Below are positions 6,001 to 9,000 of a DNA stretch of 64,000 bases, piece by piece; the stretch's first letter is position 1; each line of letters starts with the position of its first letter. Position numbers: made by a program. The stretch lies in assembly GCF_041248615.1 (NCBI RefSeq), contig NZ_CP158426.1, one strand, 5' to 3'. The stretch comes from Escherichia coli. GTDB lineage: Bacteria > Pseudomonadota > Gammaproteobacteria > Enterobacterales > Enterobacteriaceae.

Positions 6001-9000
6001 AATCCCTGGGAGTTAAACCAGTTAAGCAATTTGCGCCCTAACATTGAACGTCGCCCAGGAATCAAAAGCCGCCGTTCTTCCAGACAAGCCGGGAACGGTT
6101 TTTCCGGTGGTGGATTTGTACACCAGAAACTCACGCCACATTCGCCAATTCTCACGGAGAACAGACCTTCCTGCTGCGTAGAATCTATCGGACAGTCGGA
6201 AATGATCATATCCAGTTTATGCTGACTTAATTGCTCCAGCAGCATTTCGTGGGTGGATTCGAAGCAGCGAAGATGAATCGGCTCGCCTTCTACCACTGCG
6301 GCGTTAAGTACGCTACTGACCAGGCGTTTAGAAAGTGCATCAGCCACGCCAACGTCAAACAATAAATTGGATTCTTTGCGATAGTTCACGATATCCAGCA
6401 TTTCCTGGCTTAAGGTGAACATTTTATCGGCATAGCGATAGACCAGCTCTCCCAGCTCGCTGGGTTCGAGACCACGTCCCTTGCGTTTAAATAATTTGCC
6501 TTGCAGGCGCTCTTCCAGCGCCCGAATCTGTCCGGTAATGGTTTGTGGTGTTAAATAAAGCGCCTCCGCTGCGCCAACCACGGAACCTTCTTTATAGACA
6601 TGCCAGAAGTAATACAAGTGGTTGTAATTGATATGAGACATGCTCATTTCTCTCCCTGATAACAATGAAAAGGGAGCCGTTTATGGCTCCCCGGTAAACC
6701 GTCCTGTCAAACTGATGGACGCAAACGAACGCGTAACCAGCTGTATCCAATTACCGCCGAAGAGATAGAACCGACCAGGATACCGAGTTTCGCCCAGTTA
6801 ATCAGTTCTGGATCTACGCTACCAAAGGCAAGGCTGGCAATAAAGATAGACATAGTAAAACCGATACCGCACAGGATCCCCACCGCCATAATTTGCTGAT
6901 AAGTCGTTCCCTCAGGCAGATGCGCCAGTTTCAAACGCAGCGCCAACCAGCAGAACAGACTAATCCCCAGCGGTTTGCCAATCAGCAAGCCAGCGATGAT
7001 CCCCAATGGCAGAATGGAGGTCAAGCCATCCAGCGTGACGCCTTGCAGTGAAACGCCAGCATTAGCAAATGCAAACAGCGGTAAAATCAGATACGCCACC
7101 CACGGGTGCAACACATGCTCCAGTCGCTTCGCTGGAGAACGCCCATGCTTCTCTTTCAAAGGAATAAAGAAGCCGACAATTACCCCCGCCAGGGTTGCGT
7201 GAACCCCCGATTTCAACACCGCAGTCCACAACACCACGCCAACCAGAATATAGACGCCCGTGCGGCGTACACCACACAGATTCAATACCGCGAGTACCGC
7301 AATTGCTACAGCCGCGACGCCAAGAGAGGCCATCGATAAGTCATTAGTGTAGAACAATGCGATGATAATGATGGCCCCAAGATCGTCGATAATAGCCAGA
7401 GCCATCAAAAAGATCTTCAGCGCTAACGGAACACGACTTCCCAATAGCGCCAGCACACCAAGTGCAAAAGCAATGTCAGTAGCCGCCGGGATCGCCCACC
7501 CTTCGCGGGTAATCGGATCGGCATGGTTAAAGGCCAGATAGAGTAATGCAGGCACAATCATACCACCAATAGCGGCGATAACTGGAAATGCAGCCTGGCG
7601 TAAGCTGGCTAGCGATCCTTGCATCAGTTCACGTTTAACTTCCAGACCGACTAACAGGAAAAATACCGCCATCAGCGCGTCATTTATCCATAACAGCATG
7701 TTTTTGTTGATTTCGAGTGAACCAACCCGGAGCTGAACCGGCGTCTCCAGAAAGTCGTGATACCATCCACTGGTTGCGCCGCTGTTGGCCATAATCATCG
7801 CCAGGATAGCGGCAATGATAAGAATAATGCCTCCCGAGGCATCACTGCTAAAGAATCGATGCAGATGTTTCACTTTTTATTTCTCTTTCAGGTGAATAGA
7901 TCGTTTTTACTATCTTACCCCGCACGAATCATCGTTAAAATCAGATTATAGTGTAAGAATAATTCGTTTTTTACGAACCATTGAAGGATTTGTGCCATTA
8001 GCGATGAGATGAGTTTTTGACGGCTGTAAGCGCTCACGAGTGACCCTAAGCCCTGATAATCATAGCTTAAGGTCAGGATTTCTGAGGGATTAATTAGGAA
8101 AAGTAATAATTAATTTGTTGTCAGTCGGCGATGTTTGTTAGGCCAATATTTCAAAAATAATCCAGCTTGTCGTCAATAATTGCGATGAAGAGATAAATTA
8201 AAGTTAAATAATTAAATCATTAAAAAATTACGCCATAAAAATGCGAGGCGTCTTCAGGATTAGAATCGATAAAACAGAATGGGTTAAAGAGAGCGATATA
8301 ATAGCGGCGGGTGCTTGAGGCTATCTGTCTCAGGCATTAGCTGAACGGCAGATAGAGAAAAGCCCCGAGTGATATTTTACCATCAACCCGAGGCTCCCTA
8401 TATGCTGAACACATGTAGAGTGCCTCTTACTGACCGTAAGGTCAAGGAGAAGAGAGCAATGAAGCAGCATAAGGCGATGATTGTCGCCCTGATCGTCATC
8501 TGTATCACCGCCGTAGTGGCGGCGCTGGTAACGAGAAAAGACCTCTGTGAGGTTCACATCCGAACTGGCCAGACGGAGGTTGCTGTTTTCACGGCTTACG
8601 AATCCGAGTAAGAGCAACGGCGGGGAGTGATCCCCGCCACTTTACAGGTGCTCGCATATCTTCAACGCACCCTATTTTTACCCTGGCCTGCCCACAGGCA
8701 GGCTTTTGGGGAGGTTAGCGAGTCAGGTCGTCAAAAAACTTCTTCACACCATCAAAGAAGCTCTTTGAACGCGGGCTGTTGTGCTCACCGGTTGGGCCAC
8801 CGAAGCTTTCCTGCAGCTCTTGCAGCAGCTGTTTCTGCTTCTCGTTCAGACCTACCGGTGTTTCGACGACAACGCGGCACAGCAAGTCACCTTGCGCACC
8901 GCCGCGAACAGACTTGACGCCTTTACCGCGCATACGGAACAGCTTACCGGTCTGGGTTTCGCCAGGCACTTTCAGTTTGACGCGACCATCAAGGGTCGGT

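What the first reader, a model, noticed from the sequence alone, without database searches (positions are those of the whole stretch)
8300..8714. hokC/mokC toxin locus without the IS186 that adjoins it in K-12
hokC and mokC are intact and only about 104 bp separate the hokC stop from the dnaJ stop, including a GC hairpin (CGGCGGGGAGTGATCCCCGCC) where the hok mRNA 3' fold-back element would be. In K-12, IS186 sits in this interval, which I recall has been proposed to inactivate the locus. This copy may therefore be a functional type I toxin-antitoxin system.
Basis: partly seen in the sequence, partly recalled or inferred. Interest (0 to 1): 0.45.

Follow-up and report, generated by a model that had tools for sequence, protein, structure and literature searches.

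The report
Intact hokC toxin locus, no IS186
This is the ordinary, uninterrupted form of the E. coli hokC/mokC/sokC toxin-antitoxin locus, carried by about 70% of complete E. coli genomes and first described in 1999; only K-12 and about 30% of other genomes have an insertion sequence there.

Summary
hokC (8459-8611) and mokC (8402-8611) are intact and identical to K-12. 103 bp separate the hokC and dnaJ stops. The GC hairpin is at 8618-8638. In K-12, IS186A sits in that hairpin, 22 bp past the hokC stop, with target duplication GGAGTGATCC.

The hairpin is not the fold-back element. It matches the plasmid R1 stem-loop where the 3'-trimmed mRNA ends. The fbi element is at 8660-8672 and a terminator at 8686-8707.

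Folding gives the canonical hok switch. In the full-length RNA, tac pairs with fbi (probability about 1) and ucb covers the mok Shine-Dalgarno. Trimmed to the hairpin, the RNA refolds to tac/ucb plus mokSD/dcb. The sokC gene and its promoter match K-12, where SokC is detected.

The IS-free state is not unusual: 3791 of 5426 complete E. coli genomes have it.

An IS-free hokC from strain ECOR24 was cloned in 1999. It reportedly neither stabilised plasmids nor responded to rifampicin. A CRISPRi screen suggests even K-12's IS186-bearing copy is toxic when sokC is repressed.

"Structurally complete" is supported. "Functional because IS186 is absent" is not established. Already known, low interest.

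The parts
8297..8302 (+). hokC promoter -10 box TATAAT; no good -35 box
   Evidence: Read from the sequence. It lies 6 nt upstream of the inferred +1 and aligns with the R1 hok -10 region. It is invariant in 8 strains, while DNA just upstream is about 26% diverged in three of them. The strict consensus scan did not call it because the -35 is weak.
8309..8707 (+). Predicted primary hokC/mokC mRNA, about 398 nt. The 5' end is inferred by homology and the 3' end from the terminator.
   Evidence: The Rfam sok/hok leader model starts at 8309. Alignment with the R1 hok +1 agrees. MFE is -168.2 kcal/mol, z = -7.2 against shuffles.
8309..8320 (+). tac (translational activator) element GGGUGCUUGAGG
   Evidence: Pairs with 8660-8672 in the full-length RNA (pair probabilities 0.95-1.00). 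Pairs with 8360-8366 after 3' truncation.
8360..8367 (+). ucb (upstream complementary box) AAGCCCCG
   Evidence: Sequesters the mok SD (8389-8395) in the full-length fold. Pairs with tac in the truncated fold.
8352..8410 (-). sokC antisense RNA gene (59 nt)
   Evidence: Coordinates transferred from the K-12 annotation 16952-17010 through a gap-free alignment. The fold shows a 5' single-stranded tail, a long stem-loop and a U-run, z = -5.5.
8417..8445 (-). sokC promoter: -35 TTGACC (8440-8445), 17-bp spacer, -10 CACTCT (8417-8422)
   Evidence: Read from the sequence and the alignment with the R1 sok promoter TTGCGC-17-TATCCT. Identical to K-12. Not called by the strict consensus scan.
8390..8393 (+). 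mokC Shine-Dalgarno GAGG
   Evidence: Lies 8 nt upstream of the mokC AUG. Conserved with R1. Paired to ucb in the full-length RNA and to dcb in the truncated RNA.
8402..8611 (+). mokC reading frame (69 aa), overlapping and in frame with hokC
   Evidence: ORF list, K-12 annotation, Pfam HOK_GEF.
8405..8411 (+). Loop CUGAACA of the SokC target hairpin, with a YUNR (CUGA) U-turn-type motif
   Evidence: It is the loop of the mokSD/dcb hairpin in the truncated fold. It is complementary to the SokC 5' tail. The U-turn reading rests on my knowledge of R1 hok/sok.
8422..8426 (+). dcb (downstream complementary box) GCCUC
   Evidence: Pairs with the mok SD GAGGC (8390-8394) in the truncated RNA, probability about 0.8.
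8459..8611 (+). hokC toxin gene (50 aa); SD AAGGAG at 8444-8449
   Evidence: ORF. PF01848 at 85.5 bits. Nucleotide sequence identical to K-12.
8593..8606 (+). GGCUUACGAAUCCG, a tRNA-Arg2-anticodon-like motif around the Tyr47 codon UAC (8597-8599). It is the reported site of TadA A-to-I editing (Tyr to Cys) in hokC.
   Evidence: Sequence conserved with R1 and invariant in 8 strains. Editing of hokC is reported in PMC12214031 and 10.1101/2025.08.07.668861. Not tested here.
8618..8638 (+). GC hairpin (stem 8619-8626/8631-8638). It is the inferred 3' end of the trimmed, active mRNA and the IS186 target site. The bases duplicated in K-12 are 8624-8633.
   Evidence: Folds. Positional homologue of the R1 hairpin at the 3' end of the 361-nt R1 RNA. 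K-12 junctions. Opposite-orientation insertion at the same site in JNQH497.
8660..8672 (+). fbi (fold-back inhibition) element CUUCAACGCACCC
   Evidence: 12 pairs with tac and one bulge (8666), probabilities 0.95-1.00. Invariant in 8 strains. Aligned to the R1 fbi CUGAAGCGCC.
8686..8707 (+). Terminator: stem GCCUGCC/GGCAGGC, loop CACA, then UUUU. It probably also serves convergent dnaJ.
   Evidence: Fold and sequence. The consensus scan did not call it because there are only 4 T.
8715..8717 (-). dnaJ stop codon
   Evidence: ORF list and annotation of the identical record NZ_OW967178.1.

Best explanation
The region is the ancestral, uninterrupted hokC/mokC/sokC type I toxin-antitoxin locus of E. 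coli. It is a chromosomal homologue of plasmid R1 hok/sok, lying between nhaA and dnaJ, and it is the empty site of the IS186 insertion seen in K-12.

Inferred mechanism, by homology with R1:
1. A weak promoter (-10 box at 8297-8302) makes an mRNA of about 366-398 nt starting near 8309.
2. Its 5' tac element (8309-8320) pairs with the 3' fbi element (8660-8672). In this closed form ucb (8360-8367) covers the mok Shine-Dalgarno, and 8655-8659 pairs with the mok AUG region. The RNA is then neither translated nor bound by SokC.
3. Slow 3' exonucleolytic trimming stops at the GC hairpin (8619-8638) and leaves an RNA of about 333 nt.
4. The loss of fbi lets tac pair with ucb, and the mok SD pair with dcb (8422-8426). 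This exposes the loop 8405-8411.
5. SokC (8410 to 8352, minus strand) pairs there and across the mok start, blocking mok and therefore hok translation. The duplex is cut by RNase III.
6. If SokC falls, mokC translation drives translation of the 50-aa HokC, which depolarises the inner membrane. TadA editing of Tyr47 to Cys may tune its toxicity.

Shown here: the sequence elements, their predicted pairings, identity to K-12 apart from IS186, and the population frequency.
Inferred: transcript ends, 3' trimming, SokC action and toxicity at native expression level.

In K-12, IS186 splits the hairpin and removes fbi, so the transcript is predicted to fold directly into the open form.
For: Identity of the parts:
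- Pfam HOK_GEF, E = 1.8e-24.
- Rfam RF01794, 120.5 bits, E = 1.3e-28.
- Only 5 base differences from K-12 inside the transcription unit once IS186 and one duplication copy are removed. None lies in the hokC/mokC reading frames or the sok promoter.
- K-12 junctions...GGCGGGGAGTGATCC|IS186|GGAGTGATCCCCGCC....

Predicted RNA switch:
- Full-length fold: tac/fbi pairs at probability 0.95-1.00, z = -7.2.
- Fold truncated at the hairpin: tac/ucb and mokSD/dcb at about 0.8.
- Positive control: the same method recovers the established R1 tac/fbi pairing, nt 1-10 with nt 387-396.
- The K-12 transcript reading into IS186 folds straight into the tac/ucb form.
- SokC folds as a tail plus a terminator stem-loop, z = -5.5.
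- Element-by-element alignment with R1.

Population:
- 3791 of 5426 complete E. coli genomes have hokC and dnaJ contiguous.
- From the hokC start to fbi there are 0-2 differences per 214 nt in six other strains. The same strains differ at 25 of 97 positions just upstream of the -10 box (three strains) and at 2-3 of 86 positions in dnaJ.

Literature:
- HokC is toxic on over-expression.
- mokC/sokC RNAs are detected in K-12 and cleaved by RNase III.
- sokC knock-down is deleterious in MG1655.
- IS-free hokC loci were already noted in ECOR24 and NRG857c.
Against: - The IS-free hokC locus of ECOR24 is reported not to mediate post-segregational killing and not to be activated by rifampicin (citing Pedersen and Gerdes 1999, which I could not read).
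- The sokC -10 hexamer (CACTCT) is far from consensus. Neither promoter was called by the consensus scan.
- Transcript ends are inferred by homology, not measured.
- Variation among strains is too low to give covariation support for any helix.
- For the truncated R1 RNA the MFE did not reproduce the published tac/ucb form, so MFE predictions of the open form are not fully reliable.
- One of eight alleles examined (AVS0530) has a nonsense codon at hokC codon 3, which shows the gene can be lost without obvious cost.
Confidence: 0.85

Rival explanations
1. The locus is structurally complete but physiologically inert. It would be a conserved-looking remnant that never kills at native expression level, as was concluded for chromosomal hok loci in 1999. 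The absence of IS186 would then make no phenotypic difference.
For: ECOR24 hokC (IS-free) did not mediate post-segregational killing and was not activated by rifampicin (10.1101/2025.08.07.668861). The sokC -35 box is closer to consensus than R1's, so repression could be tight. A natural nonsense allele exists.
Against: The mRNA unit is more conserved than the neighbouring dnaJ codons and far more than the DNA just outside it, which argues for selection. sokC knock-down is deleterious even in K-12. The HokC ORF is toxic when expressed. The ECOR24 tests were plasmid-stabilisation and rifampicin assays in rich medium only.
Confidence: 0.3
2. IS186 does not inactivate hokC at all. Both the K-12 form and this form are live toxin-antitoxin pairs. 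They differ only in whether an inert full-length mRNA reservoir exists, so the K-12 contrast that motivated the finding is moot.
For: The CRISPRi sokC knock-down phenotype in MG1655 is stronger than that of sokB. mokC and sokC RNAs are present and RNase III-dependent in K-12. The K-12 transcript is predicted to adopt the translatable, Sok-accessible fold directly.
Against: dCas9 bound at sokC also sits on the mokC leader, so the phenotype could have other causes. The result comes from a preprint screen without a follow-up that I could find. Other authors still describe K-12 hokC as inactivated.
Confidence: 0.35
3. The 103-bp spacer, including the GC hairpin, is simply the dnaJ (dnaKJ operon) transcription terminator region, and its resemblance to hok 3' elements is incidental.
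For: dnaJ converges on this spacer. The hairpin at 8686-8703 is next to the dnaJ stop and could act in both directions.
Against: The T-run follows the 8686-8703 hairpin on the hokC strand, not on the dnaJ strand. The order hairpin, fbi, terminator parallels R1, which has no dnaJ. The 12-bp tac/fbi complementarity has pair probability about 1. The stretch 8612-8672 is invariant or nearly so, while 8673-8714 varies at 2-6 of 42 positions.
Confidence: 0.05

Closest known systems
hokC(gef)/mokC/sokC(sof) of E. coli K-12 MG1655 (b4412/b0018/b4413)
   Same: Same chromosomal position between nhaA and dnaJ. Identical hokC and mokC coding sequence and identical sok promoter region. Only 5 single-base differences in the transcription unit.
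   Different: K-12 has the 1.34-kb IS186A plus a 10-bp duplication inside the 3' hairpin. This separates fbi and the terminator from the gene. The K-12 transcript is predicted never to form the closed tac/fbi state.
IS-free hokC loci already described: E. coli ECOR24 (Pedersen and Gerdes 1999, Mol Microbiol 32:1090) and AIEC NRG857c hok-1
   Same: Same gene, same lack of IS186. A transcript of about 330 nt is reported for ECOR24, which matches the 333-nt trimmed form predicted here. NRG857c is described as an intact locus lacking IS elements.
   Different: I could not obtain those sequences to compare base by base. The window allele has two private-looking changes (8395 C to T, 8696 G to A) among the 8 alleles aligned. 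An identical 601-bp stretch exists in NZ_OW967178.1.
hok/mok/sok (parB) of plasmid R1, the reference for the family; an identical copy on p1658/97 was used here
   Same: Same order of elements: -10 box, tac, ucb, mok SD, mok AUG, sok promoter on the opposite strand, dcb, hok SD, hok, TadA-like GGCUUACGAAUCCG motif, GC hairpin, fbi. Same predicted tac/fbi closure.
   Different: It is chromosomal rather than plasmid-borne. HokC has 50 aa. The sok -10 box is CACTCT rather than TATCCT, and the -35 box is TTGACC rather than TTGCGC. The post-segregational killing shown for R1 is reported absent for the chromosomal hokC tested.
IS186 (IS4 family, also annotated IS421) insertion hot spots in G-rich/C-rich palindromes
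   Same: The hairpin GGGGAGTGATCCCC fits the G-run, short spacer, C-run target that I recall for IS186 (my knowledge of the lon-promoter hot spot; Sengstag et al. 1986 is cited). There is a 10-bp duplication. The site is used in both orientations with the same duplication.
   Different: In this window the site is empty.

Membership tests
[quoted passage not shown] | Small hydrophobic toxin of the Hok/Gef family | tested here: met
   PF01848 HOK_GEF at 85.5 bits (cut-off 22), E = 1.8e-24, covering profile positions 1-42 of 42.
[quoted passage not shown] | Overlapping upstream mok reading frame with its own SD, through which hok is translated | tested here: met
   The 69-aa ORF 8402-8611 is in frame with hokC, and SD GAGG (8390-8393) lies 8 nt upstream. 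The arrangement aligns with R1. Translational coupling itself was not testable.
[quoted passage not shown] | cis-encoded antisense Sok RNA overlapping the mok translation start, with its own promoter and terminator | tested here: met
   Rfam RF01794 at 120.5 bits against 59. Coordinates 8410-8352 (minus strand) were transferred from the K-12 sokC annotation. The fold shows a tail plus a terminator stem-loop. The promoter is TTGACC-17-CACTCT, identical to K-12. Expression in this strain was not tested.
[quoted passage not shown] | Long-range 5' tac / 3' fbi pairing that closes the full-length mRNA | tested here: met
   8309-8320 pairs with 8660-8672: 12 pairs, probabilities 0.95-1.00, whole-RNA z = -7.2. 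The R1 control recovers the known pairing. This is an in-silico result only.
[quoted passage not shown] | Alternative tac/ucb and mokSD/dcb pairings after removal of the 3' end | tested here: met
   Seen in the folds of 8309-8640 and 8309-8641 with probabilities of about 0.8. It depends on the chosen 3' end: ends at 8650 or 8655 gave a different 5' hairpin.
[quoted passage not shown] | Slow 3' processing of the mRNA to the active form; unstable Sok versus stable mRNA | not testable with these tools
   Needs northern blots or a rifampicin chase. The about-330-nt transcript reported for ECOR24 agrees with trimming to the hairpin.
[quoted passage not shown] | Killing when Sok is lost (post-segregational killing or rifampicin-induced killing) | not testable with these tools
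   The literature gives a negative result for ECOR24 hokC, a deleterious sokC knock-down in MG1655, and toxicity of the HokC ORF on over-expression.
IS186 empty target site | Sequence equals the K-12 flanks with IS186 and one copy of the duplication removed | tested here: met
   The K-12 junctions reconstruct CGGCGGGGAGTGATCCCCGCC exactly, with duplication GGAGTGATCC. The megablast breakpoint in interrupted genomes falls at window 8634.

The most novel reading that the evidence does not exclude
The hokC 3' hairpin may be a recurrent IS186 landing site whose occupation is selected rather than merely favoured by target preference. About 30% of complete genomes are interrupted there, with IS186 in both orientations and the same duplication. 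Meanwhile the stretch from the hokC start codon to fbi is nearly invariant across six other strains. Under this reading the IS-free allele keeps a closed mRNA reservoir that gives a conditional function, such as nutrient-limitation-linked growth arrest or persistence, or phage defence. IS186 insertion would convert that allele to a reservoir-less, always Sok-dependent form. My evidence neither demonstrates nor excludes this.
Probability: 0.12. Interest if true: 0.45.

Novelty: already known. Interest (0 to 1): 0.1.

Why it matters
It matters little as a discovery. The IS-free hokC locus is the majority state in E. coli and has been in the literature since 1999. The K-12 arrangement is the derived one, so "without IS186" is a K-12-centred view.

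The check is useful as annotation. It fixes the coordinates of every regulatory element of the locus in this window. It corrects the assignment of the hairpin, which is the end of the trimmed mRNA and the IS186 target, not fbi. It also shows that the predicted difference from K-12 is the presence of the closed, inert mRNA form.

The open question is old: what do chromosomal hok loci do, if anything? This sequence does not make that question more testable than hundreds of other strains do.

Tried and rejected
- Consensus promoter/terminator scan of 8150-8760: it found no promoter and only an irrelevant intragenic terminator-like site. The hok and sok promoters are non-consensus, so the scan is uninformative rather than negative.
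- Covariation analysis of tac/fbi and the other helices: abandoned. The eight E. coli alleles aligned are 98% identical and the paired columns are invariant.
- Reading Pedersen and Gerdes 1999 directly: not held. Its results are cited second-hand.
- Weak Rfam hit to the Pseudomonas rpsL leader on the minus strand at 8579-8705 (17.6 bits against a gathering score of 70, E = 0.74): rejected as chance. It is driven by the two hairpins.
- MFE folding of the truncated R1 RNA did not reproduce the published open form. I therefore treat the open-form prediction for hokC as supportive only.
- Adding the junction counts (3791 uninterrupted, 821 K-12 orientation, 939 opposite orientation) exceeds 5425 genomes. 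The junction queries probably also match IS186 next to another hok locus, so only the 3791 figure is used as firm.
- The idea that the spacer is only a dnaJ terminator: rejected (see rival explanations).
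Full report
**1. What is in the sequence**

The window is E. coli chromosome in the opposite orientation to K-12. The genes around the finding are:
- nhaR at 5742-6665 (minus strand)
- nhaA at 6707-7873 (minus strand)
- the hok locus (plus strand)
- dnaJ, ending at 8715 (minus strand)
- dnaK at 9934-11850 (minus strand)

hokC is a 50-aa ORF at 8459-8611 and mokC a 69-aa ORF at 8402-8611. Both match Pfam HOK_GEF (E = 1.8e-24).

The hokC stop is at 8609-8611 and the dnaJ stop at 8715-8717, so the spacer is 103 bp. The string CGGCGGGGAGTGATCCCCGCC is at 8618-8638.

Rfam RF01794 matches 8309-8461 at 120.5 bits against a gathering score of 59, E = 1.3e-28.

**2. Relation to K-12**

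MG1655 has IS186A at 15387-16731, between dnaJ and hokC. The junctions read ...GGCGGGGAGTGATCC|CATAAGCGC...GCGCTTATG|GGAGTGATCCCCGCC....
- The element sits in the loop of the hairpin, 22 bp after the hokC stop.
- It carries a 10-bp duplication, GGAGTGATCC.
- The window is therefore exactly the empty site.

With IS186 and one duplication copy removed, the interval between nhaA and dnaJ differs from K-12 at 21 of 847 positions.
- Five of these lie in the hok transcription unit: 8323, 8395, 8396, 8684 and 8696.
- None lies in the hokC/mokC reading frames or in the sok promoter region 8411-8450.

**3. Anatomy by comparison with plasmid R1**

I retrieved an R1-type hok/sok copy (p1658/97, locus L003). 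It is 100% identical to the 332-nt R1 hok sequence that I supplied from memory. The alignment shows the same series of elements in both:
- -10 box: TATAAT at 8297-8302
- tac: 8309-8320
- ucb: 8360-8367
- mok SD: GAGG at 8390-8393
- mok AUG: 8402
- sok promoter on the minus strand. Here it is -35 TTGACC (8440-8445), a 17-bp spacer and -10 CACTCT (8417-8422). In R1 it is TTGCGC-17-TATCCT.
- dcb: 8422-8426
- hok SD: 8444-8449
- the GGCUUACGAAUCCG motif near the end of hok
- a GC hairpin just after the stop codon
- fbi: CUUCAACGCACCC at 8660-8672 here, CUGAAGCGCC in R1

SokC coordinates carried over from the K-12 annotation are 8410 to 8352 on the minus strand. That RNA folds into a 5' single-stranded tail plus a long stem-loop followed by a U-run, z = -5.5.

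**4.

Full-length RNA, 8309-8706:
- MFE is -168.2 kcal/mol, z = -7.2.
- Positions 8309-8320 pair with 8660-8672: 12 pairs, one bulge, probabilities 0.95-1.00.
- ucb pairs with the mok SD region.
- 8655-8659 pairs with the mok AUG region.

RNA ending at the hairpin, 8309-8640 or 8309-8641 (333 nt):
- tac pairs with ucb (8360-8366).
- The mok SD GAGGC pairs with dcb (8422-8426).
- A 7-nt loop CUGAACA (8405-8411) is left free, complementary to the SokC 5' tail.

Controls and comparisons:
- The same procedure on the R1-type RNA recovers the established tac/fbi pairing (nt 1-10 with nt 387-396 of 398). The 361-nt processed form ends just after the R1 hairpin.
- The open form of R1 was not recovered by MFE, so the open-form prediction for hokC is supportive only.
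- The K-12 transcript reading 100-300 nt into IS186 folds directly into the tac/ucb plus SD/dcb form, because fbi is missing.

It is the homologue of the stem-loop at which the trimmed mRNA ends. This fits the transcript of about 330 nt reported for ECOR24 hokC (PMC3562002). It is also the IS186 target.

**5. How common is the IS-free state?**

- A 601-bp query spanning hokC and the end of dnaJ is contiguous in 3791 of 5426 complete E. coli genomes.
- The remaining genomes break at window position 8634, inside the hairpin.
- 821 genomes carry the K-12-type hokC/IS186 junction.
- 939 carry the junction with IS186 in the opposite orientation.
- These two counts overlap slightly with matches elsewhere, so I treat them as approximate.
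- In strain JNQH497 the opposite-orientation element has the same duplication as K-12.

The uninterrupted locus is thus the majority and evidently ancestral state. The hairpin is a repeatedly used IS186 site.

**6. Conservation**

I compared six other IS-free alleles with the window. They were sampled down the identity ranking.
- hokC CDS plus 3' UTR up to fbi (214 nt): 0-2 differences.
- Just upstream of the -10 box: 25 of 97 positions differ in three strains.
- Between fbi and the dnaJ stop: 2-6 of 42 positions differ.
- dnaJ codons: 2-3 of 86 positions differ.

This is consistent with selection on the RNA and protein. The sample is small, and the near-invariance also means no covariation test is possible. 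One allele (AVS0530) has a nonsense codon at hokC codon 3.

**7. What the literature says**

- K-12 hokA, hokC and hokE are described as inactivated by insertion elements (PMC7232551; PMC12214031).
- For hokC, IS186 is thought to disrupt fbi and mRNA processing (PMC3562002).
- An IS-free hokC was cloned from ECOR24. It "could not mediate PSK and [was] not activated by rifampicin" (10.1101/2025.08.07.668861).
- NRG857c was noted to have IS-free hok loci.
- The HokC ORF is toxic when expressed.
- In K-12, mokC/sokC RNAs are detected and form RNase III substrates (10.1101/510842).
- A CRISPRi screen found sokC knock-down strongly deleterious in MG1655, more so in minimal medium. Its authors suggest that hokC is still functional despite IS186 (10.1101/2020.03.04.975888).
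- I could not read the 1999 paper itself.

**8. Verdict**

The locus is a complete member of the hok/sok family by every feature testable in silico.

- "Intact" is right.
- "Therefore functional" is not established. The one IS-free hokC tested gave negative killing assays, while the IS-bearing K-12 copy may still be toxic.

The configuration is the common one and has been described before. Novelty: already known. Interest: low.

**9. Other things seen in the window**

Comparison with K-12 shows:
- a chaperone-usher fimbrial operon beside nhaR, where K-12 has IS1A
- a 4.1-kb insert between ettA and nadR
- absence of hipH
- a prophage end beyond prfC

These are listed in the noticed-in-passing field.

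Noticed in passing
window 8618-8638 (related loci L001, L004): The hokC 3' hairpin is a recurrent IS186/IS421 target. About 30% of complete E. coli genomes are interrupted there. The element occurs in both orientations with the same 10-bp duplication GGAGTGATCC. I did not resolve whether this reflects several independent insertions or an in-place inversion.
   Followed up: partly
window 8297-8672 versus 8200-8296 and 8673-8714: There is a sharp conservation boundary. From the -10 box to fbi the unit is nearly invariant among strains (0-2 differences per 214 nt from the hokC start to fbi). DNA immediately upstream is about 26% diverged in three strains, and the stretch after fbi differs at 5-14% of positions across the six strains.
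   Followed up: partly
window 8593-8606: GGCUUACGAAUCCG around the hokC Tyr47 codon UAC (8597-8599) resembles the tRNA-Arg2 anticodon arm. It is the reported TadA A-to-I editing site that would recode Tyr to Cys. It is conserved with R1 hok.
   Followed up: no
locus L007 (E. coli AVS0530), position corresponding to window 8465: This is a natural hokC allele with CAG to TAG at codon 3. RefSeq annotates a shorter 44-aa Hok/Gef protein there.
   Followed up: no
window 1-5704: A chaperone-usher fimbrial operon lies next to nhaR: fimbrial subunit 1003-1536, PapD-like chaperone 1586-2269, usher 2282-4732, and a 319-aa ORF with no Pfam match at 4745-5704 (possibly the tip adhesin). K-12 has IS1A at this place instead.
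   Followed up: partly
window 36570-40686: A 4.1-kb segment absent from K-12 lies between ettA and nadR. It encodes a LysR-type regulator (36700-37680, minus strand), an aldo/keto reductase (37721-38731), a short-chain dehydrogenase (38649-39548) and a polyketide-cyclase/SRPBCC-like protein (39574-39990).
   Followed up: partly
window 46266-46552: The K-12 gene hipH (yjjJ, a HipA-like kinase toxin, 1.3 kb) is absent. About 290 bp of unrelated sequence lies between deoD and lplA.
   Followed up: no
window 58636-64000: Synteny with K-12 ends just past prfC. The rest carries a phage tail-fibre gene (62216-63853, minus strand) and a tail-fibre assembly gene (61602-62216, minus strand), which suggests the end of a prophage.
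   Followed up: partly
window 53634-53711 and 53734-53812 (minus strand): Two tandem Rfam naRNA4 (REP-derived nucleoid-associated RNA) matches at 79 and 77 bits. The Thr leader (23588-23707) and tpke11 (9846-9923) are at their expected places.
   Followed up: no
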